Virus record (IMG/VR): IMGVR_UViG_2690316243_000015 | Coordinates: 1-9,278 of that record | Reading direction: 5' to 3' (one strand) | DNA: 9,278 bases | Origin: a virus | Taxonomy: Duplodnaviria; Heunggongvirae; Uroviricota; Caudoviricetes | In this document: in pieces, positions 1 through 9,278 of the stretch | Layout of the letters: each line of letters opens with the position of its first letter | Position numbering within the stretch: position 1 is the first letter of the stretch | Notes under the pieces: generated by a model | Told to the model about the DNA's origin: nothing | What the model saw: the letters and a program-made list of their open reading frames with translations, nothing else | Databases searched by the model: none | Made by a program: the position numbers and the translations under genes

Positions 1-351
1 TCACGGCGCAGAAGTGTACCAACCGAAACTTGTTAACCCGGCATCGCAGCGCTCACGATTAAGCACACGTGGCGGGTTTTCTCTGGTCATCAACTCAAGC
101 AAGGCATTGCCTCCCTGCGTCTCTAGGCGGTATTGCCTATCGGTAGTGGTAATGGCATCCGGCAATAACTTTATGGCGGCCTGGCTAAAGTCTCGCGGTG
201 CGCCGTAAAATTGCGCATCAACAATATGAACCACATCGCCGTTAATCGTTGTCCGATAACGGTCTGGCTGTATGGTAAAGCCCCCACAATGGATAGCAGA
301 TAGTGCCGGTGCCGAGGAGATCAGGCCGGCTGCCAGAATGTATGGCTTCAT
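1..351 (-). CDS. Putative exported protein, partial (C-terminus lies beyond the window start); N-terminal signal-peptide-like segment
   Basis: ORF-track ORF 1..351; N-terminus MKPYILAAGLISSAPALSAIHC has a basic n-region, hydrophobic core and ALSA-type cleavage context. Start ATG (349-351) overlaps the stop of the upstream peptidase gene as ATGA. No recognised family. Confidence 0.4.
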   Translation of the reverse strand: MKPYILAAGLISSAPALSAIHCGGFTIQPDRYRTTINGDVVHIVDAQFYGAPRDFSQAAIKLLPDAITTTDRQYRLETQGGNALLELMTRENPPRVLNRERCDAGLTSFGWYTSAP

Positions 352-989
352 TCTTCACCCACCAATTCATCCAGTTCAGCCAGCGTCATAGGCTTTGGTA
401 CAGGCTTGTCAATATCACCCATAATGCGCTGGAAGTTGCTGGCAGGCATATGGTTACGGTTCTCCAGTATTTTCGCCAGCGCGATAACATCCCACCATTT
501 CAGGGCAATCAGCGCCTCAGCACGGGAAAGGGATATTCTCTGTATATCAGCATCCTCCCCACCAGCCACCCGGTATACCTCTGATAAATCACGAACATTT
601 TTCATGTCTGCTTTCCCGGACGTTTCCATCAGTGCGTTAATATCATCCCCCGTATAGCGTGATTGCGCGACGATACCAGCCAGAGAGATAACCATAGCCC
701 GGCATACCTGGTCTATCAGACGTAACCTGGTGTCATCATTCGAGAGGGTGTAAGACTTAACCTCAGCCACATTCCGTGGATAGTTGGCGTGCCATACCGC
801 GACAGCTCCACATTCATCAACATCGCCGCTAAGGTAGGTTTTTGCCACTCGGTTATTACCCGATAACGCAATTTCTACCTCCTGTATGCCGAAAAACCAT
901 GCGGCTATCGCATGACCTGCTTCATGTATTGCAAGATGTCTGGGCCAGCGATAGCTGCCGAACTCAATAATGATGGGTTGCGTACTCAT
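348..989 (-). CDS. HExxH zinc-metallopeptidase-like protein (FtsH/M41-like peptidase domain without an ATPase module)
   Basis: Motif AIHEAGHAIAAW resembles the FtsH YHEAGHA zinc site; downstream SLAGIVAQSRYTGDDIN loosely resembles the FtsH protease-domain LGGRAAE..TGA..D region. Start placed at ATG 987-989 (MSTQP...) because of a GAGGGAAG Shine-Dalgarno ~6 nt upstream; the ORF-track ORF extends to 1067 but that would overlap the upstream gene. Confidence 0.55.
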   Translation of the reverse strand: MSTQPIIIEFGSYRWPRHLAIHEAGHAIAAWFFGIQEVEIALSGNNRVAKTYLSGDVDECGAVAVWHANYPRNVAEVKSYTLSNDDTRLRLIDQVCRAMVISLAGIVAQSRYTGDDINALMETSGKADMKNVRDLSEVYRVAGGEDADIQRISLSRAEALIALKWWDVIALAKILENRNHMPASNFQRIMGDIDKPVPKPMTLAELDELVGEE

Positions 990-999
990 ATCTTCCCTC

Positions 1000-1434
1000 T
1001 CAGAATGGCGTTTCATCGTCGAATGGTGGGCGTTGGTCGTATTCATCACGGGATGGCTGCTGCGCACGTCTCAGCGCGTCCGTTGCCTGTCCCCGCTGTC
1101 CTGCCTTCCCGCCGGGGCGTACCGTTCTGGCGCTGATCACACTGTCGGCTACTACCTGATACCCCTGCTGTGTACCGCCGTCCTGCCCTGTCCACTGGTT
1201 GAGTTGCATATTGCCTGCCACGCTCACAAGGTCGCCTTTCTGGTGCTTTGCCAGCGCATCGGCCTGCTTCCCAAAAGCAATAACGCCCAGCCAGAAGGTT
1301 GACTCTCCCGCCTCTGCCGCATTACAGGGGAGAGACACCGCCAGCCGCGCCATAGCCATGTTGTTACCGTTCGTTGTGGTGCGGGTCTGGGGATCTGCCA
1401 CCAGCCGCCCGTATGCTGAAATTTGTGCTGTCAT
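1000..1434 (-). CDS. Divergent single-stranded DNA-binding protein (SSB-like OB fold with acidic C-terminal tail)
   Basis: Aligns by eye to E. coli SSB: [15 protein letters not shown] vs [40 protein letters not shown] vs [35 protein letters not shown] vs RKWTDQSGQ; C-terminus PPFDDETPF vs DFDDDIPF. GGAGAG Shine-Dalgarno 9 nt upstream; ATGA overlap with the upstream gene. Confidence 0.7.
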   Translation of the reverse strand: [144 protein letters not shown]

Positions 1435-1688
1435 GCTGTCTGCTCTCCGGTTTTAACGTTGATGGTTGTCACCTGTTCCGCTTCGGCAATCTCCCGTTCT
1501 GTCAGCGTGGCAAAATTTGCCGCCGCCGTTGTCATGAATGCGCTTATCAGTTCGGGATGTGCTTTTGCGTATCCTTCTCCCGTGTTGCGGTCGATGATTT
1601 TTATCGCCAACCTCAGCCAGTGCTCTGTAAGGTCAATAGTGCGGTTATGTGGTTTCTTCTGATTATTAAGTTTTCCTGATGTGTGCAT
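1431..1688 (-). CDS. Small hypothetical protein (85 aa from MHTSGK...; the ORF could start at 1748)
   Basis: ORF-track ORF 1431..1748; internal ATG at 1686-1688 has GAGGGGG ~13 nt upstream and avoids running into the iteron region. Stop overlaps the SSB start (ATGA). No recognised family. Confidence 0.45.
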   Translation of the reverse strand: MHTSGKLNNQKKPHNRTIDLTEHWLRLAIKIIDRNTGEGYAKAHPELISAFMTTAAANFATLTEREIAEAEQVTTINVKTGEQTA

Positions 1689-1737
1689 TTTTGTTTTTAC
1701 CCCCTCGTTTAAAAAGTTTTGAGTTGTACCTCCCCCC

Positions 1738-1967
1738 CCTCTACCCATCTACCCGAATGCTCCTCAGGTCAGTAATGGCGCGGCTTTCAGCGGGTAGATA
1801 GCTTTTTGGGCTCCTCTACCTGCCGTCTACCCGGCTACCTGAAATTGATAAAATCAGGTAGATGAGGTAGAGAGCTTTTGAACCCCCTCTACCTGCCATC
1901 TACCTGATATATTCTACTGAATAATATATATTTATTTACTTAAGGTAGAGGGGGGAGAGGGCTTTTG
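1738..1967. repeat. Iteron-like repeat array plus AT-rich tract; putative replication origin for the adjacent primase/helicase
   Basis: At least seven direct copies of (T)CTACC (at 1741, 1748, 1815, 1826, 1835, 1888, 1899) and four inverted GGTAGA (1793, 1857, 1866, 1944). Two ~28-bp units, GGTAGATAGCTTTTTGGGCTCCTCTACC (1793-1820) and GGTAGAGAGCTTTTGAACCCCCTCTACC (1866-1893), each carry internal inverted ends. A near-pure AT tract lies at ~1905-1943. Located in the only sizeable intergenic gap, immediately 3' of the primase gene. Confidence 0.55.
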
Positions 1968-1974
1968 CCAAAAA

Positions 1975-3729
1975 CTATAAAAACGCGTCGCAATCGTCTG
2001 TTGTTATTGCGTTAGTCTGCGTTACCCCCTTAATTTTCCGCGTAATATATTCATGTCCGTAAACTTTCGCCGCTGGCTTCATAGCTTTGCTGAACTCAGC
2101 TACGTTCAGCGGCTTGTTCCTGCCGGCATACGCCATAAACGCCAGATAGACGCGGTAAAGGCTGTTTCTGGTCGTGTACCTGGAAGAGTCACCGCCGCCG
2201 CCCATCATCAGGCCGCGTGCTTCTTCCAGAAAGTTAAGGAACTGGCAAAATTCAATAACCGGATCCGTCTGTTGCTTTATTGCCAGTGCTTCATCACCGT
2301 CACGCTGTTCCAGTAGTAAAGCCCGTGCCTTTTCAGGGTCGGCAAAGTTCGCCAGCAAGCGGCGGATAATGACTGGGATTTCAGCCGCGATTTTTTCCGG
2401 TAGTTCTCTGTCTTTTTCGGCCTCACTGACGATATTGTCGAAACGGAAAATCACGCGACGACGTGCCACGCCTCCGGCCCGTTCGGTGAATATCATCGGG
2501 TTGTTATTGGTTGCCAGCACAACCGCCCTGATTACCGCTGTGAAACGCTTCTCATATTTCGGGTTAATTTCCACGGGGTCGCCGCCAGTGATTTTCTTGA
2601 TGCCCGTGCCTTCGCCTGTATATTTCGGCTGGTCTGCCAGGACAATAAGCCGACTCCCGACAACCTGCGCACGTCCACCAGCATCATCAAGCGATGTCAT
2701 TTCAGCGCTTACCGTGTTCTGTTTCCCTGCCAGAAGGCTGGCTATGTGCGTGAAAGTGCTCTTGCCGCTCCCGCCGTCTCCGGTGGCCTCAATAAACATC
2801 TGCCAGTCGTGGCGGTTCGCCATAATCATGTACAGCGCGGCGCATATGCGCATCATCTTGTGCGGGTCTTTTCCGGCTGCATGTTCAAGCCATTTGTGGA
2901 AGTTCGGCGCGTTGTCGCGGATGTTTTCCCCTGGTACTGGTGGCGTGTATTCAATGCCGTTGTGTGTGGTGAGCCAGTTCTCCGGCTGGTGCGGTGAAAA
3001 TTCCCCCGTTATCAGGTTAAGCACACCATTGGCAAACGGCAGCAAATCACCGGACGGCTCGCCCATCGGGTCAGCAATAACTTTTAACGCTTCAACGGCG
3101 TTATTAATTGCCCGCTTGCTGAATGTGGCCCCGTGTTCTGAATAAACCGCCACCATTTCGCGGCTCAGTTCCATTGTGCTGACCGGACACCATACCCCGC
3201 CGCGCCATACGTGAACGATTTCACTTTCAGGATGCACGCAAACGCCATCAAAGCGATCGGCAAGCAGCTGCGCGCGCTCACTGTCCGCCATCTGCGAAAG
3301 TTGCGCCTTTTGCGTTACCGGAAGCTCAATCACCAGACCATCAGAAAGATTCTGGCGCTCACGGGCCAGATATTCGCGCCAGTTCTGCACCTCCTGGCCG
3401 TGCATACCCTCAGGATAAAAATTTGCATCCTGTACGCCTGCCGCCGCCAGCTTCTGACCAATCGCCTTGATCATTACAGGCTCAAGATGTCCGGCTCTGT
3501 ATATGCGTGCTGATTTTCTGCCATCCGGCACAATTTGCAGATTATCTAGTTCGGATAGCTGCTGCTCTCCAAGCCACACAGGAGGCTCATTATCTCCGGC
3601 TGTACGCGCGTCATGTTCCTGCCACTGTTTCGCGTGTGCCCAGGCATCACTACCCGCAAAAATGATCACTTCGGTTTGAGCGTGTTTTATTCCGCGTGGC
3701 TGTTTTTTTACGTTCGGTGCCAGTTTCAT
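1975..3729 (-). CDS. P4 alpha-type replication protein (phage/plasmid primase, P4-family C-terminal domain with SF3-type helicase Walker A GDGGSGKST)
   Basis: 584-aa ORF; Walker A TGDGGSGKSTF; later VVLATNNNP resembles SF3 helicase motif C; overall resemblance to P4-family primase C-terminal region. AGGGG Shine-Dalgarno 8 nt upstream; ATGA overlap with the upstream gene. Confidence 0.8.
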   Translation of the reverse strand: MKLAPNVKKQPRGIKHAQTEVIIFAGSDAWAHAKQWQEHDARTAGDNEPPVWLGEQQLSELDNLQIVPDGRKSARIYRAGHLEPVMIKAIGQKLAAAGVQDANFYPEGMHGQEVQNWREYLARERQNLSDGLVIELPVTQKAQLSQMADSERAQLLADRFDGVCVHPESEIVHVWRGGVWCPVSTMELSREMVAVYSEHGATFSKRAINNAVEALKVIADPMGEPSGDLLPFANGVLNLITGEFSPHQPENWLTTHNGIEYTPPVPGENIRDNAPNFHKWLEHAAGKDPHKMMRICAALYMIMANRHDWQMFIEATGDGGSGKSTFTHIASLLAGKQNTVSAEMTSLDDAGGRAQVVGSRLIVLADQPKYTGEGTGIKKITGGDPVEINPKYEKRFTAVIRAVVLATNNNPMIFTERAGGVARRRVIFRFDNIVSEAEKDRELPEKIAAEIPVIIRRLLANFADPEKARALLLEQRDGDEALAIKQQTDPVIEFCQFLNFLEEARGLMMGGGGDSSRYTTRNSLYRVYLAFMAYAGRNKPLNVAEFSKAMKPAAKVYGHEYITRKIKGVTQTNAITTDDCDAFL

Positions 3730-4230: not shown

Positions 4231-4432
4231 GTCTCACCCCCTGAATATTCGCGTTAATCATTCCGGCACGTTCTGCGAGTTCCTGTAATGATTCCCTTGT
4301 TGCGACAATTGCTTCATCTGGCAGGTGGTAATTACATACCACGCGACCTTTATCCACATTGACCAGTAGCTGCCCGGTAAATTTCTCACGAAACTGAATG
4401 CGGTTAAGGTCGGTAAGTGACAGATTAATCAT
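4217..4432 (-). CDS. Small hypothetical protein (71 aa), paralogue of the adjacent 66-aa protein
   Basis: See the paralogue alignment above; GGAGGT Shine-Dalgarno 7 nt upstream; 8-nt overlap with the upstream 283-aa gene and 14-nt overlap with the downstream 66-aa gene. Confidence 0.5.
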   Translation of the reverse strand: MINLSLTDLNRIQFREKFTGQLLVNVDKGRVVCNYHLPDEAIVATRESLQELAERAGMINANIQGVRHESS

Positions 4433-5276
4433 GGCCCACCTCCTGACGAATACGGGCGGCGAATACCATCACGCAGCCATCAGGAGATTGCTGGCGGGCT
4501 TCCTGTTCGCTGGTGGCCACGATGTGAATCACGCGCGGTTGTGCTGTGCTCAGGGCGATAAAGCGCCAGATAAAGGCAGTTTGAGAATGTATAAGGGTAG
4601 GGGTAGTAGCCATGTTGGCAGCCTCCTTCAGATAGCAGGTTACGCTACCACCGGAAACGCCAATTTCGCTGGTGGTAGCCCAGACAGGGTTGGCGTAACC
4701 GGCTCTGAAGGATACCGGCGCTTCCGAAGAAGCCCCCGCCTGAGCCACCATTGATTGACAAAGGCGCTGGATTATACACCAACGCCCAAAAAATGGGTGA
4801 GTCAGACCTACGACATAAAAAAAGACGCTCGGCGCGTCATATGTCGCCTTCAGAATTTTCAGGACGCCAATCCTGGCCCCCGTTTTATGAGGTGCCTTAT
4901 AACCATAAACCGTGTTGCCGCATAACGGCAAGCTCTTTTTTATGGACTCCGAAAACTCACTATTGGAAGAACCAGAGGCACAGTACATCGCGCTCATTTC
5001 GTTAACGTTGCGCATGCGGACGAAGATTTTTGTGGAGTCACTACGCGAGCAGAACAGGTCATCTACGACCAGAAATTCTCTGGCGCAGCCGCTGACCTTC
5101 TCAACGCTAATATCATCGCCCGAGATTTCTGGCATGGTTAAGGCATCCGTTCCGACCACCAGCAAATGATAAACTTTGTTTGTATCTGCTGTATTAATGC
5201 CTGACTTTGCCGCCATATTGCTGGATTTTGGCGACATGCCAGCCAGTGAAAATATCTTCTTCTGGGCGGTTAGCAT
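4425..5276 (-). CDS. Hypothetical protein (283 aa), function unknown
   Basis: Long ORF with GGAGG Shine-Dalgarno 7 nt upstream of the ATG at 5274-5276; start overlaps the stop of the upstream small gene (ATGCTAA). No motif I can assign with confidence. Confidence 0.6.
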
Positions 5277-5452
5277 TTGTTAACCTCCGCGAACTCCTTC
5301 ATGAAACGTGCCAGCGGTTGCACGCATGGCGATTGATACCCGTCGCGATAAAACGTCACTCGGTTGTGAGACACGCTTTCGACAGTAACGAGTGCTCCGT
5401 GGGCATCTTTGTAGCGTTTTTGAGGTTGTGGTGTTCCTGTCGGCTTAAACAT
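5270..5452 (-). CDS. Small hypothetical protein (60 aa from MFKPTG...), paralogue of the 99-aa protein at 3726-4025
   Basis: ORF-track ORF extends to 5539, but the ATG at 5450-5452 has GGAGG 7 nt upstream and overlaps the AntA stop (ATGTTTAA), whereas the longer form would overlap AntA by ~95 nt. Shares the TFYRDGY..C..P..F motif with the 99-aa protein. Confidence 0.5.
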   Translation of the reverse strand: MFKPTGTPQPQKRYKDAHGALVTVESVSHNRVTFYRDGYQSPCVQPLARFMKEFAEVNKC

Positions 5453-6254
5453 GGACCGCCTCCAGACGCTTAGCGAGCCAGCGTTGCGACAGGCGGGTGA
5501 GTTCTCCTTTGCGCTGCTCATATTCCATGCCCATATCAATTAACGTGATATTGGTGCTTTCGAGATAGGCGAGGTGTTCAAGCTGTGCTGCGTTCATGCT
5601 GTCCCGTGGTTCGCCAGTAATGCCATTTGCCTGCGCCCACTGCTTCGCCGTCATGCCACCCAGCACGATACGGGCGATCATGTTGCTCTCGTTGCTGTAG
5701 TGGCGCTGCTGCGTCGTTTTGCCCATCTCGGCACGGGCCATATTCAGCGCATCGCACATTGGCTTAAAGTTGTTTGCGGCACTGAGACGGGCTTTTAGCT
5801 GGCGACGATAGCGGGCGGCGATTTCAGGCACGCTACGCTGTAATTCTTCCTCGCACTGGATGAAATAACGGCGGATAGCGCGGCCCTGCTCGTTGCGTTC
5901 AACCATTGCCACTTCTTTAGCCATATCCAGCGATAGCAGGTAATCATGCTCTATTTGCTGGCGAGTTTTTGCGCTCGCCCGTTTTGGCGTGCTCAAATTT
6001 TCAACACGGATAAAATCGGTTCCGGCAATAAAACCGTACTGGTCAATTCGGACTTTAATCCAGTTAGTAAAGTCGCGGCCCACCCCCAGCGCTTTATGCA
6101 ACGCCTTAGCGCTCACAATATTGGCTTCACGCCCGCCAATGCGTCCGGCAATAACGGGAACAATAGCGGCAAAGTCGTTGCCGTTAATTACTCCCGTGTT
6201 AACGTTGGGTTGCGGGGCGGCCCCCGAACTGAATCGGCTTTTTTCGATAGTCAT
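5445..6254 (-). CDS. AntA/AntB-family phage antirepressor-like protein
   Basis: SAKALHKALGVGRDFTNWIKVRIDQYGFIAGTDF and LSLDMAKEVAMVERNEQGRAIRRYFIQCEE match the conserved AntA-domain signature as I recall it. Start placed at ATG 6252-6254 (MTIEK...) with GGAG 8 nt upstream; the ORF-track start at 6314 would overlap the upstream gene. Confidence 0.6.
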   Translation of the reverse strand: MTIEKSRFSSGAAPQPNVNTGVINGNDFAAIVPVIAGRIGGREANIVSAKALHKALGVGRDFTNWIKVRIDQYGFIAGTDFIRVENLSTPKRASAKTRQQIEHDYLLSLDMAKEVAMVERNEQGRAIRRYFIQCEEELQRSVPEIAARYRRQLKARLSAANNFKPMCDALNMARAEMGKTTQQRHYSNESNMIARIVLGGMTAKQWAQANGITGEPRDSMNAAQLEHLAYLESTNITLIDMGMEYEQRKGELTRLSQRWLAKRLEAVHV

Positions 6255-6267
6255 ATTTTCGGCTCCG

Positions 6268-6699
6268 TTATGCGGCGGTGAGATTGTCCGGGTATAGATT
6301 GAGAATGTCGGCAATTTCAGGCTGAGAAAGTCCCTGATAGCCGCCAGCGTCGGCGTTATGGTTCACAAGCCGAATAACTTTTAGAACGTCACCGCGCCCG
6401 GTAAAGCGATAGCGTAAATGTGACCCTATCCCGTCGGGGTTCTTTTCGTCTATACGCTCAAGCTGAATATCAAGCCTGCGCTCTAACTCGCTGGCGTAGT
6501 TCCTTCCAGACGAAAGGCGGCAATAACGCAGAATGTCATTTTCTGTCCATCCCTCTATACCAGTACGCAGCATATAGACTCTGGCACGATGCTTTTTCGG
6601 TGTGCGCTTTGGTGCTTGAAGGGATTTTGTAAGGGGCGTAACATCAGATACGCGAATATCTGAATTAGCCGCCTGTAATGGGCGGTTTTTCTTTTCCAT
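6268..6699 (-). CDS. Hypothetical protein (143 aa), basic N-terminus, function unknown
   Basis: ORF with AAGGTGG Shine-Dalgarno; its ATG overlaps the AlpA stop by 1 nt (TGATG), indicating co-translation with alpA. No recognised family. Confidence 0.5.
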   Translation of the reverse strand: MEKKNRPLQAANSDIRVSDVTPLTKSLQAPKRTPKKHRARVYMLRTGIEGWTENDILRYCRLSSGRNYASELERRLDIQLERIDEKNPDGIGSHLRYRFTGRGDVLKVIRLVNHNADAGGYQGLSQPEIADILNLYPDNLTAA

Positions 6700-6902
6700 C
6701 AGGCCACCTTCCCGCGGCGTTCTGCCAGCCAGTTGTGAATCTCAACCGCATCAAACGCAGTTATTTTTTCTCCCAGCTTTACCGGACGTGGTAGTGAACC
6801 GTTTCTTACTTTACGGTCGATGGTGGATACACTAACGCCCAGCAATTCAGCCAGGCGGAAGCGTCTGATATAGCCTTTTGTAGGGATAGTGTCGATGTTC
6901 AT
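6699..6902 (-). CDS. alpA: AlpA/Vis-family transcriptional regulator / excision accessory protein (MerR-like HTH)
   Basis: 67 aa; IRRFRLAELLGVSVSTIDRKVRNGSLPRPVKLGEKITAFDAVEIHNWL fits the AlpA (CP4-57 regulatory protein) pattern of an HTH followed by P.P.KLG and a conserved W. Typical size and position next to a P4-type integrase. Confidence 0.8.
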   Translation of the reverse strand: MNIDTIPTKGYIRRFRLAELLGVSVSTIDRKVRNGSLPRPVKLGEKITAFDAVEIHNWLAERRGKVA

Positions 6903-7863: not shown

Positions 7864-7958
7864 TGCGTCACCTTTTACGCTGCGCCTTATTTTGTGATTG
7901 AGCCAGGCGGTAAGGCTTCCCGCTTTTCGCCCCGTCGAGCTAGGCTCAATCTATTCAG

Positions 7959-9278
7959 TTAGTTCGCCCTTCTGAGAGGCGTTACGTTGTAGTCTTTTCC
8001 GCTTTCCAGTGCCACCAGCAGATCAGCCCACTGTGCCAGTGCTGCTTTACGCTCATCAAAATACTGATGGCGGTTATAAATCCCCTCTACGCCCTTAATG
8101 CGATGATTGAGGCATCGTTCCGCCACAACAGGATCAACACCCAACGCTGCTAAATGAGTACGTGCGGTGCGTCGAAAGTCGTGAATCGTGAAATTAGGCA
8201 CATCCGGCATTTCGGCGCGAACCTTAGCCAGTGCTACGGGTAAAGTGCTTTCCTGAATATGTGGGATCATTCTGTTTTGCATCTTCCTGGCCGGAAGCAC
8301 CCATGCGCTATTACATGAAAAGGTGTGTAGCTCTCTCAACCATTCAACGGCTGGGGAAGGTAGAGGTATATCAATAGGGTCTCCGTTTTTGCTGCGTTCT
8401 TCCGGCAAATGCCATACCGCACCATCTAAATCAAACTCTTCCCATCGTGCGGCGCATAATTCCATTTTGCGGACGCATAACGCTAACAGTAATTTGAACG
8501 TGATTTCGTTCTGGCGACTGAATCCCTTAGCCGTGCGCATGGCTTTGAATAGCTGGATTAACTCATCGCGGGTTAACCAGCGGTCACGGGCAGCTTCTTT
8601 CCCTCCGGCGTCTGCCACCTCAAAGGCTGAACAGGGGTTAATCTCTAGCGCGTGCCGTTTGATTCCGTAGTCGAATATGCGGCGCGTCCATCTCAGCACG
8701 TCCGTTGCTATGGTCGGCGCTCCACGGTCAACAATACCTTTCAGCATGTCATCGATATGGCGCGGTTTCACGTCCTCTACCTTCATGCTGCCAATGCAGG
8801 GGTTTATATCTTTGTCGATACGGCGGCGGAGTATATCGGGGTGCTTCCAGCGCGGGAGGATCTGACGCTCAAAGTATTCAGCGGCAAGCTCTGAAACGCG
8901 CATAGCGTTCTTCTCTGCTTCCATCTTCGCCAGTGCTTCGGTTTTGCGCTTCTGCTTCTCTCCTGCAACGTCATAGCCCAGCGCAACGCGAGCCGATAGC
9001 TCTTTGGCTGTCTCTCTGGCCTTTGATAGTGATAGCTCGCTATACGAACCAATTAGCATGGCGCGGGACTTCCCTGCGAGTTTATAGCGGAATCTCCATG
9101 TGGGGGTTTTGTCGGCTTCACGGTAACGTAGGTATAAACCGTTACCGTCTGCCCGCCCCTCGAATCGCTCTCCGCTCTTAATCCATGCGCGGATCTGCAT
9201 GTCTGTTAGTTTTGGCATTTTGCGAATATCCAAACTTTGAATAGGGGGTGTACCCAAAGCAATGTACCCAAACCTCAT
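7959..9278 (-). CDS. int: Tyrosine site-specific integrase (P4-like); 5' end at or beyond the window edge
   Basis: C-terminal catalytic region with HDFRRTARTHL (HxxR) and terminal IYNRHQYFDER (candidate catalytic Tyr); N-terminal region typical of phage integrase arm-binding domains. The ORF reaches the window edge at 9278; an internal ATG at 9216-9218 (MPKLTDMQIRAW...) is a plausible true start but has no clear Shine-Dalgarno. Confidence 0.9.
   Translation of the reverse strand: MRFGYIALGTPPIQSLDIRKMPKLTDMQIRAWIKSGERFEGRADGNGLYLRYREADKTPTWRFRYKLAGKSRAMLIGSYSELSLSKARETAKELSARVALGYDVAGEKQKRKTEALAKMEAEKNAMRVSELAAEYFERQILPRWKHPDILRRRIDKDINPCIGSMKVEDVKPRHIDDMLKGIVDRGAPTIATDVLRWTRRIFDYGIKRHALEINPCSAFEVADAGGKEAARDRWLTRDELIQLFKAMRTAKGFSRQNEITFKLLLALCVRKMELCAARWEEFDLDGAVWHLPEERSKNGDPIDIPLPSPAVEWLRELHTFSCNSAWVLPARKMQNRMIPHIQESTLPVALAKVRAEMPDVPNFTIHDFRRTARTHLAALGVDPVVAERCLNHRIKGVEGIYNRHQYFDERKAALAQWADLLVALESGKDYNVTPLRRAN

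What the first reader, a model, noticed from the sequence alone, without database searches (positions are those of the whole stretch)
348..989. Standalone FtsH-like HExxH domain without an ATPase module
The motif HEAGHA and the downstream region resemble the M41 protease domain of FtsH, but the protein is only ~213 aa and lacks AAA+ and transmembrane parts. A free-standing protease domain next to an SSB-like gene and an exported protein could be a regulatory protease (for example repressor or immunity-protein cleavage) or a defence or anti-defence effector. Alternatively it belongs to the ImmA/IrrE-type HExxH peptidases common in mobile elements; I cannot separate these by eye.
Basis: partly seen in the sequence, partly recalled or inferred. 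Interest (0 to 1): 0.5.

Follow-up and report, generated by a model that had tools for sequence, protein, structure and literature searches.

The report
Free-standing FtsH-type protease domain
A small gene on a P4-like integrated mobile island encodes only the zinc-protease half of the cell's FtsH machine, with no ATP motor and no membrane anchor; its fold and catalytic residues are intact, but what it cuts is unknown.

Summary
Window 348-989 (minus strand) is a 213-aa ORF carrying HEAGHA.

On its own the sequence matches no curated family significantly. Three lines of evidence place it in the FtsH/M41 protease-domain superfamily:
- A profile of its wider family matches FtsH across the whole protease domain (E 1.2e-13 against PDB; hhalign 96% against E. 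coli FtsH).
- H22/E23/H26 and D128 align with FtsH's zinc site. E23, H26 and D128 are invariant in 57 relatives; H22 is kept in 56.

There is no AAA+ module and no membrane segment. The ImmA/IrrE (M78) alternative is rejected.

The gene directly follows the island's own SSB gene, downstream of the primase and a putative iteron origin. Relatives only 25-28% identical occupy a similar position after the replication genes in other islands and in phage contigs. It is optional: 26 of 5426 complete E. coli genomes carry it, whereas about half have at least partial similarity to the window.

Most likely it is an active, ATP-independent zinc peptidase made when the island replicates, acting on a host or helper-phage protein. 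The target is unknown. I rate it a new variant of a known kind, of moderate interest.

The parts
348..989 (-). CDS of the 213-aa free-standing M41 (FtsH-type) protease domain
912..926 (-). Codons of H22-E23-A24-G25-H26: the HExxH zinc-binding and catalytic motif
   Evidence: Lies in helix 17-32 of both models. Aligns with FtsH H414-E415-x-x-H418. E23 and H26 are invariant and H22 is kept in 56 of 57 relatives.
606..608 (-). Codon of D128, the predicted third zinc ligand
   Evidence: Invariant in 57 of 57 relatives. Aligns with the Asp of FtsH TGA(S/E)ND, which is D492 in the 644-aa E. coli numbering. M41 is defined by HExxH plus a downstream Asp ligand (PMC5939537).
663..665 (-). Codon of Q109, which aligns with FtsH E476 in the LAGxxAE motif
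   Evidence: In the 57-sequence family this position is E in 32 and Q in 22. Q is invariant in the window's own subfamily. G105 and A108 of the same motif are invariant.
994..999 (-). Shine-Dalgarno-like GAGGGA between the SSB stop codon and the ATG
   Evidence: Read directly from the sequence upstream of ATG989.
1000..1434 (-). Island-encoded SSB (144 aa, C-terminal DDETPF tail), the gene most consistently found upstream
   Evidence: Pfam SSB E 5.6e-17 and TIGR00621 above its cut-off. In all 20 loci whose relative scores E <= 1e-50 against the A3 profile, an SSB gene lies 0-1.2 kb upstream.
1..351 (-). Downstream 116-aa ORF with a signal-peptide-like N-terminus. Its start overlaps the protease stop (ATGA). 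It is not a conserved partner.
   Evidence: ORF and overlap. This slot holds a 356-aa protein in Dickeya and Serratia and PerC in Klebsiella.
1431..1748 (-). Small ORF of unknown function (phrog_1231) in the same gene string
   Evidence: PHROG E 1.8e-46. Annotated as 100 aa in the E. coli relative.
1730..1960 (.). Iteron-rich, AT-centred intergenic region: the putative replication origin of the island
   Evidence: Multiple GGTAGA(G/T)G-type repeats in both orientations around an AT-rich core. The origin function is inferred, not shown.
1975..3729 (-). P4-family primase/helicase at the head of the replication gene string
   Evidence: Pfam D5_N, DUF5906 and Pox_D5.

Best explanation
Shown:
- The gene encodes a soluble 24-kDa protein that is a complete FtsH-type (MEROPS M41) protease domain and nothing else.
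- HExxH sits in the first helix, followed by a small beta-sheet and a helical bundle that carries the third zinc ligand Asp128.
- These catalytic residues are conserved across relatives that are otherwise only 20-30% identical, and the gene is under purifying selection.
- It lies on an integrated P4-like island that has an integrase, AlpA, AntA, C4/isrK RNAs, an Icd-like ORF and a P4-family primase.
- It is the gene directly after the island's SSB, on the same strand, with no predicted terminator between the primase and the window edge.
- It is optional. Sibling islands at the same chromosomal site go straight from SSB to PerC.

Inferred:
- It is an active zinc endopeptidase that works without ATP.
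- With no unfoldase, it can only cut exposed, disordered or peptide-like segments, perhaps after self-assembling as FtsH protease domains do.
- It is made together with the replication genes when the island is derepressed.
- It cuts a host or helper-phage protein to the island's advantage.
- The substrate is not known.
For: Fold:
- Foldseek against PDB: 48 of the top 50 hits are FtsH, AFG3L2, YME1 or FtsHi protease domains.
- The best match among viral predicted structures is a 214-aa 'Peptidase M41 domain-containing protein' from an uncultured phage.
- Model confidence is pLDDT 93.6 and pTM 0.89 with the 57-sequence alignment.

Sequence:
- The A2 family profile hits FtsH at E 1.2e-13 in two stretches that span the protease domain.
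- The stricter A3 profile still reaches E 1.2e-5.
- hhalign of A2 against E. coli FtsH gives 96.3%, aligned to residues 407-598.
- 22 of 57 relatives hit Pfam Peptidase_M41, best E 1e-13.
- A UniRef entry for the cluster of the 69%-identical Dickeya relative is named 'Peptidase M41 domain-containing protein'.

Active site:
- E23, H26 and D128 are invariant; H22 is kept in 56 of 57.
- dN/dS is 0.20-0.40.

No motor or anchor:
- The protein is 213 aa, has no AAA hit and no hydrophobic segment long enough for a membrane helix.

Context:
- The order primase, then SSB, then this gene recurs in E. coli, Klebsiella, Serratia and Dickeya, and with relatives only 28% identical in Salmonella.
- A relative sits next to the primase genes in a Pseudomonas island.
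- Relatives sit between the primase and head genes in 28-53 kb viral contigs.
- No terminator is predicted on the minus strand between 1 and 1975.

Optional:
- 26 of 5426 E. coli genomes carry the gene, whereas 2741 match part of the window.
- Sibling islands lack it.

Self-assembly:
- Isolated FtsH protease domains can form hexamers (review PMC9020784).
Against: - No enzymatic or genetic data exist for any free-standing M41 protein in the literature I could search.
- The single sequence is below Pfam's M41 threshold (12.3 against 29.9 bits). Family membership therefore rests on intermediate sequences and a predicted structure.
- The window's subfamily has Gln109 where FtsH has Glu476. From memory, this Glu (E479 in the older numbering) matters for FtsH activity, so catalysis may be weakened or tuned differently.
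- One relative has QEAGH in place of HEAGH.
- In FtsH the protease sites are fed by the ATPase ring, so it is not established that an M41 domain alone cuts proteins efficiently. A recent NMR preprint found the isolated E. coli protease domain mainly monomeric.
- Co-transcription with the replication genes is inferred only from gene spacing and a simple terminator scan.
Confidence: 0.6

Rival explanations
1. Non-catalytic FtsH mimic. The protein inserts into, caps or titrates the host FtsH protease ring or its partners. This would change turnover of FtsH substrates such as lambda CII-type regulators, LpxC or RpoH, without cutting anything itself.
For: It has the fold that forms the FtsH hexamer disc. 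The protease domain decides which FtsH protomers pair (review PMC9020784). Phage lysis-lysogeny control runs through FtsH (PMC1838920, listed). Q109 replaces an FtsH glutamate.
Against: A pure mimic has no need to keep the zinc site, yet E23, H26 and D128 are invariant and H22 is kept in 56 of 57 relatives at 20-30% overall identity. Identity to FtsH is only 13-21%, so conservation of the ring interface is doubtful. No interaction was tested.
Confidence: 0.12
2. Abortive-infection or defence effector that protects the island's host from unrelated phages. On this reading it is a constitutively carried protease toxin switched on by infection, not a tool of the island's own life cycle.
For: Patchy accessory distribution. 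Deep divergence at a conserved site: 28% identity next to an SSB that is 67-68% identical. From general knowledge, satellites often carry defence cargo at their distal end.
Against: No PADLOC model matches this protein or its three neighbours. No sensor or partner gene is conserved next to it. It follows the replication genes on the same strand, downstream of the C4-type immunity RNA. That position suggests it is repressed in the quiescent island.
Confidence: 0.13
3. ImmA/IrrE-type (M78) anti-repressor protease that cleaves an element-encoded repressor.
For: It has an HExxH motif and sits on a mobile element.
Confidence: 0.02
4. Core replication accessory factor that the island needs, for example to process the primase or load the SSB.
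For: Constant placement after the primase, origin and SSB, whatever the primase type.
Against: Sibling islands at the same site have the primase and SSB but lack this gene. Only 26 of 5426 E. coli genomes carry it, whereas 2741 match part of the window. Some relatives have no SSB nearby.
Confidence: 0.05
5. Membrane-embedded site-2-type (M50) metalloprotease.
Against: The match covers only about 26 residues around HExxH. No transmembrane segment. The fold match to M41 is three times stronger.
Confidence: 0.01

Closest known systems
Protease domain of FtsH, the ATP-dependent zinc metalloprotease (MEROPS M41, Pfam PF01434). Examples: E. coli FtsH residues ~407-598, PDB 2DI4, 2CE7, 2DHR, 7TDO.
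   Different: No AAA+ ATPase, no transmembrane helices and no periplasmic domain. Only 13-21% identity. Gln replaces FtsH Glu476. The model has a four-stranded sheet after the motif helix (strands 38-42, 48-51, 55-58, 62-66). It is encoded on a mobile island, not as a housekeeping gene. It falls below Pfam's curated threshold as a single sequence.
Uncharacterised free-standing 'Peptidase M41 domain-containing' proteins of 160-260 aa in phage and metagenome data. Examples: UniProt A0A6J5RJ76 from an uncultured Caudovirales phage, and the Dickeya relative P0013.
   Same: Same domain-only architecture and size. Many carry precomputed PF01434 hits. They are found on (pro)phage or island DNA.
   Different: These are database names only; I found no experimental work on any of them. 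The window's Enterobacterales branch is more divergent (no Pfam hit) and is tied to the primase-SSB module.
FtsHi / Ycf2-associated inactive FtsH homologues of chloroplasts (PDB 8XKV, 8XQW, 8XKS)
   Different: [quoted passage not shown] The protein here keeps the zinc site and lacks the ATPase.
ImmA/IrrE (MEROPS M78) anti-repressor peptidases of mobile elements
   Same: HExxH zincin on a mobile element, of similar size.
   Different: Different family and fold. No profile or structural match and no partner repressor gene.
PDB 5IQJ, a Vibrio cholerae protein of unknown function (131 aa)
   Different: Shorter. No detectable sequence-profile match (not listed at E <= 1). Whether it keeps a zinc site was not examined.

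Membership tests
MEROPS M41 / Pfam Peptidase_M41 (FtsH protease domain) | HExxH zinc-binding and catalytic motif located in an alpha-helix | tested here: met
   HEAGH at residues 22-26, inside helix 17-32 of both AF2 models.
MEROPS M41 / Pfam Peptidase_M41 (FtsH protease domain) | Third zinc ligand is a downstream aspartate (definition cited from PMC5939537) | tested here: met
   D128 aligns with the Asp of FtsH TGAxND (E. coli D492) in both the HMMER and hhalign alignments. It is invariant in 57 of 57 relatives. Metal binding itself was not tested.
MEROPS M41 / Pfam Peptidase_M41 (FtsH protease domain) | M41 protease-domain fold | tested here: met
   [not shown]
MEROPS M41 / Pfam Peptidase_M41 (FtsH protease domain) | Single sequence scores above Pfam's curated gathering threshold | tested here: not met
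   12.3 bits against a cut-off of 29.9, E 0.15, motif region only.
MEROPS M41 / Pfam Peptidase_M41 (FtsH protease domain) | Significant profile-level homology over the whole domain | tested here: met
   A2 profile against PDB FtsH, E 1.2e-13. A3 profile, E 1.2e-5. hhalign 96.3%, E 1.5e-9, 151 columns. 22 of 57 relatives hit PF01434. The narrow profile A1 alone was not significant.
FtsH holoenzyme (ATP-dependent AAA+ protease) | N-terminal AAA+ ATPase module fused to the protease domain | tested here: not met
   The protein is 213 aa and the protease domain begins at about residue 15. No AAA hit. Upstream is an SSB gene in another reading unit.
FtsH holoenzyme (ATP-dependent AAA+ protease) | Two N-terminal transmembrane helices (membrane anchor) | tested here: not met
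   Maximum 19-residue hydropathy 1.49, so no candidate segment.
FtsH holoenzyme (ATP-dependent AAA+ protease) | Hexameric protease disc | not testable with these tools
   Only monomer prediction was available. Published results on isolated domains differ: hexamers in the review, mainly monomers in the preprint.
FtsH holoenzyme (ATP-dependent AAA+ protease) | Zinc-dependent proteolysis | not testable with these tools
   Needs biochemistry.
MEROPS M78 (ImmA/IrrE) | Match to the Peptidase_M78 profile | tested here: not met
   No hit at E <= 1. None of 57 relatives hits at E <= 0.01.
MEROPS M78 (ImmA/IrrE) | ImmA/IrrE fold | tested here: not met
   [not shown]
MEROPS M78 (ImmA/IrrE) | Adjacent cognate HTH repressor gene | tested here: not met
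   The neighbours are an SSB and a putative exported protein. The nearest HTH gene (AlpA-like, 6699-6902) is more than 5 kb away.
MEROPS M50 (site-2 protease) | Multi-pass membrane protein with HExxH in a transmembrane helix | tested here: not met
   No transmembrane segment. The M50B match is 26 residues at E 0.01.
Known anti-phage defence systems (PADLOC-DB v2) | Match to any defence-protein model | tested here: not met
   No hit for the protein or its three neighbours at E <= 1.
P4-like / PICI-like integrative satellite island (genomic context) | Integrase, AlpA-type regulator, P4-family primase and C4/CI-type immunity RNA | tested here: met
   Integrase ORF and AlpA-like HTH. Primase with D5_N and Pox_D5. 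C4, isrK and int-alpA RNAs above Rfam gathering scores. Integrated between yicC and dinD in E. coli. Listed as an 11.7-kb viral contig in IMG/VR.
P4-like / PICI-like integrative satellite island (genomic context) | Capsid-redirection or packaging genes (sid/psu/delta or rpp/terS), and helper-dependent mobilisation | not tested
   I did not screen all island ORFs for these. Mobilisation needs experiments.

The most novel reading that the evidence does not exclude
Free-standing M41 domains are a previously unstudied class of ATP-independent proteases carried by phages and phage satellites. They work with the element's own replication module. For example, they could cut the disordered linker or tail of the host or helper-phage SSB, or another replication or immunity hub protein, so that the element's SSB and primase take over the replication fork. 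Alternatively they could dock on host FtsH to retarget it.
Probability: 0.1. Interest if true: 0.8.

Novelty: new variant of a known kind. Interest (0 to 1): 0.45.

Why it matters
In the sources I read, M41 peptidases are described as the proteolytic chamber of an ATP-driven, membrane-bound machine (PMC9020784, PMC5939537). Here the chamber subunit is found alone, with its zinc site intact. It is spread through phage satellites and phages and is repeatedly placed next to their replication genes.

If it is active, it shows that this fold can work without its motor. It would also add a new kind of protease to the tools mobile elements use against hosts or helper phages.

The work is practical. 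There is a small soluble protein to purify, clear catalytic mutants to make (E23Q, D128A), and natural islands with and without the gene at the same E. coli locus for comparison.

If it proves inactive, or only trims peptides, it is a minor accessory gene.

Tried and rejected
Searches that found nothing significant:
- Single-sequence searches of Pfam, PHROGs, NCBIfam, PADLOC and PDB sequences.
- The narrow family profile A1 (20 sequences, 62-98% identical) against PDB. By hhalign against E. coli FtsH it aligned only the 17-residue motif region, probability 24%. The wider alignments A2 and A3 were needed.
- tblastn against 50,697 deposited phage genomes and 72,556 plasmids.
- PHROGs for a phage-borne relative.
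- Five full-text literature searches for free-standing M41 or FtsH-like proteins in phages, satellites or defence. The only phage report is a jumbo-phage protein described as an FtsH homologue, of unknown function (PMC6892783).

Resources that were unavailable:
- The afdb50 fold library was not on the machine.
- The Bieniossek 2006 FtsH structure paper was not held. The zinc-ligand definition is therefore cited from PMC5939537, and the role of FtsH Glu479 is from memory only.
- The model coordinates could not be opened in the scripting tool, so zinc-site geometry was not measured.
- No multimer prediction was available.

Readings considered and rejected:
- ImmA/IrrE (M78) and M50 site-2 protease.
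- The longer GTG1067 start.
- The exported neighbour as an obligate partner; it varies between islands.
- An essential replication role; most sibling islands examined lack the gene.

Full report
**1. The observation**

Window 348-989 holds a minus-strand ORF of 213 codons that begins MSTQPIIIEFGSYRWPRHLAIHEAGHAIAAWFFG.
- The ATG at 989 is preceded by GAGGG with a 5-nt spacer, directly after the stop codon of the upstream SSB gene.
- The ORF's TGA overlaps the ATG of the next ORF (ATGA).
- A longer GTG start at 1067 would overlap the SSB gene, and no homologue uses it.
- HExxH occurs only twice in the six-frame translation of the window. That is near chance expectation, so the motif alone proves nothing.
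- The protein is acidic (pI 5.2), 23.7 kDa, and has no hydrophobic segment long enough for a membrane helix.
- dN/dS against four relatives is 0.20-0.40, as expected for a working protein-coding gene.

**2. What the protein is**

Searched alone, the sequence matches nothing significantly.
- Pfam gives Peptidase_M50B at E 0.01 and Peptidase_M41 at E 0.15, both confined to the motif.
- PHROGs, NCBIfam, PADLOC and PDB sequences give nothing.

The close family is small. It has 23 protein clusters, nearly all from Enterobacterales, nearly all named 'hypothetical'. A UniRef entry for the cluster of the 69%-identical Dickeya relative is named 'Peptidase M41 domain-containing protein'. A profile of this narrow family (A1) still did not reach FtsH.

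An exhaustive profile search of 1.84 billion representative proteins found 63 relatives, mostly 160-280 aa. Two wider alignments came from these hits.
- A2 holds 57 sequences. Its profile hits FtsH structures at E 1.2e-13, in two stretches that together span the protease domain.
- A3 holds only relatives found at E < 1e-10. Its profile still reaches FtsH at E 1.2e-5.
- hhalign of A2 against authentic E. coli FtsH, fetched from MG1655, gives 96.3% probability and E 1.5e-9 over 151 columns, aligned to FtsH residues 407-598.
- 22 of the 57 relatives hit Pfam Peptidase_M41 individually, best E 1e-13.
- A profile search of the 5.8-billion-protein collection found 335 relatives. Many are 160-260 aa with precomputed PF01434 hits. 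Only a few carry AAA domains.

**3. Structure**

- AlphaFold2 with the narrow alignment gave pLDDT 79.8. With the 57-sequence alignment it gave pLDDT 93.6 and pTM 0.89.
- The order of elements is: helix 17-32 carrying HEAGH, a four-stranded sheet (38-66), then a helical bundle.
- Foldseek against PDB: 48 of the top 50 hits are FtsH, AFG3L2, YME1 or FtsHi chains.
- In the viral structure library the best match is a 214-aa 'Peptidase M41 domain-containing protein' from an uncultured phage.

**4. Active site**

The alignments place the residues as follows.

| This protein | E. coli FtsH (644-aa numbering) | Role in FtsH |
|---|---|---|
| H22, E23, H26 | H414, E415, H418 | HExxH motif |
| D128 | D492, in TGASND | third zinc ligand |
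| Q109 | E476, in LAGxxAE | see below |

- M41 is defined by HExxH plus a downstream Asp ligand (PMC5939537).
- Across the 57 relatives, E23, H26, G105, A108, D128 and A172 are invariant. H22 is kept in 56 of 57; the exception is one Pectobacterium protein with QEAGH.
- One difference: Q109 aligns with FtsH E476. The wider family has E in 32 members and Q in 22 at this position.
- From memory only, this Glu (E479 in the older numbering) affects FtsH activity. The substitution could therefore modulate catalysis.

**5. Genomic setting**

The window is most of an integrated island. On the minus strand the order is:
- integrase (7959-9278) and int-alpA RNA (7884-7950);
- a 282-aa ORF and an AlpA-like HTH (6699-6902);
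- a 143-aa ORF, AntA/AntB (5445-6314) and a DUF4222 ORF;
- isrK and C4 antisense RNAs (4818-4895 and 4668-4755), inside an ORF annotated elsewhere as Icd-like;
- small ORFs and a P4-family primase (1975-3729);
- an iteron-rich, AT-centred intergenic region (1730-1960);
- a phrog_1231 ORF, the SSB (1000-1434), the M41-like gene, and a 116-aa ORF with a signal-peptide-like N-terminus.

In E. coli 39EVA a closely related island, whose copy of this gene is near-identical, lies between yicC and dinD. IMG/VR lists an 11.7-kb copy as a viral contig. No terminator-like site is predicted on the minus strand between 1 and 1975. I therefore infer that the gene is transcribed with the replication genes, downstream of a P1/P4-type RNA immunity region.

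**6. Conservation of context**

- The order primase, then SSB, then M41-like recurs in Klebsiella, Serratia and Dickeya. In Dickeya one extra gene lies between SSB and the M41-like gene. The downstream gene differs in each: PerC, a 356-aa protein, or the exported ORF.
- Salmonella islands have relatives only 28% identical in the same slot, next to an SSB that is 67-68% identical to the window's.
- The primase differs in type: D5_N/P4 here, Zn-ribbon/Toprim/DUF927 in the others.
- In a Pseudomonas mendocina island a relative sits immediately upstream of the primase genes, with no SSB.
- In 28-53 kb viral contigs, relatives at 24-27% identity lie between a primase and head genes (major head protein, neck protein), again without an SSB.
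- More distant relatives in Acidobacteriota and other lineages show no such neighbours.

**7. The gene is optional**

- Only 26 of 5426 complete E. coli genomes carry it full-length, always on the chromosome. 2741 genomes match part of the window.
- Sibling islands at the same yicC/dinD site go directly from SSB to PerC.
- Klebsiella has SSB, then the M41-like gene, then PerC. The gene therefore looks like an insertable accessory.

**8. Mechanism**

Shown: a soluble, domain-only M41 protein with a conserved zinc site, carried as an accessory gene at the end of the replication gene string of a P4-like island.

Inferred, in order of decreasing support:
- (a) It binds zinc and hydrolyses peptide bonds.
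- (b) Without an unfoldase it can only act on exposed, disordered or short segments.
- (c) It may self-assemble. Isolated FtsH protease domains have been reported to form hexamers (PMC9020784), but a recent preprint finds the E. coli domain mainly monomeric.
- (d) It is produced when the island is derepressed and replicating.
- (e) Its target is a host or helper-phage protein.

The patchy distribution, and the deep divergence beside a well-conserved SSB, suit a conflict-type accessory gene better than a core function. The substrate is unknown.

**9. Rivals**

- *Non-catalytic FtsH mimic.* This is attractive because the protease domain governs FtsH ring assembly and FtsH controls lambda CII (PMC1838920, listed). 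However, an invariant zinc site at 20-30% overall identity argues for catalysis.
- *Defence effector.* This cannot be excluded, but there is no PADLOC match and no conserved partner gene.
- *ImmA/IrrE and M50.* Both are rejected.
- *Essential replication role.* This is contradicted by the sibling islands that lack the gene.

**10. Novelty and verdict**

Free-standing M41-domain proteins are already named as such by automated annotation. I found no experimental study of any of them. The only phage case in the literature I could search is a jumbo-phage FtsH homologue of unknown function.

I rate it a new variant of a known kind, with interest 0.45. Confidence is high for what the protein is and low for what it does.

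Noticed in passing
window 4668-4755 (-), 4818-4895 (-), 7884-7950 (-): Three Rfam matches above gathering score: C4 antisense RNA (79.9 bits), isrK (62.9 bits) and int-alpA RNA (60.6 bits). C4 and isrK lie inside the 283-aa ORF 4425-5276, which related genomes annotate as 'Icd-like protein'. That long ORF call may therefore be partly spurious. The island probably uses P1/P4-type RNA immunity.
   Followed up: partly
window 1730-1960: The intergenic region between the primase and the phrog_1231/SSB genes holds multiple GGTAGA(G/T)G-type repeats in both orientations around an AT-rich core (about 1905-1940). It looks like an iteron-type replication origin.
   Followed up: partly
window 1000-1434 compared with L005, L007, L002, L010, L013: The island SSB stays 67-76% identical across islands, and four of the five keep a DDxxPF-type C-terminal tail. 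The adjacent M41-like protein is either about 70% or only about 28% identical, and the primase is of a different type. This indicates module shuffling around a stable SSB.
   Followed up: partly
L018 (CACSKA010000004.1): A 93%-identical copy of the gene, with an SSB, an AlpA homologue and a primase, sits in an assembly labelled Chryseobacterium sp. 18061. It is probably contamination or a mislabelled assembly and not a true Bacteroidota host. A 73%-identical copy is also reported from Pseudomonas graminis.
   Followed up: no
P0016 (Pectobacterium brasiliense relative): This relative has QEAGH instead of HEAGH at the zinc motif, the only exception among 57 aligned relatives. It may be an inactive variant or a sequencing error.
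   Followed up: no
[not shown]
   Followed up: no
window 1-351 (-): A 116-aa ORF with a signal-peptide-like N-terminus (MKPYILAAGLISSAPALSA...) and two cysteines. Its start overlaps the protease stop codon. It matches no family apart from a weak PHROG hit at E 0.015. It is present in the E. coli islands but replaced by other genes elsewhere.
   Followed up: partly
L034 and L035 (E. coli STB20-1 and PCN061, yicC/dinD site): Sibling islands carry a PerC-family regulator directly after the SSB gene. They share distal genes with the 39EVA island that carries the M41-like gene: a pRiA4b ORF-3 family protein and small hypothetical ORFs before dinD. The post-SSB position is therefore a variable cargo slot.
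   Followed up: partly
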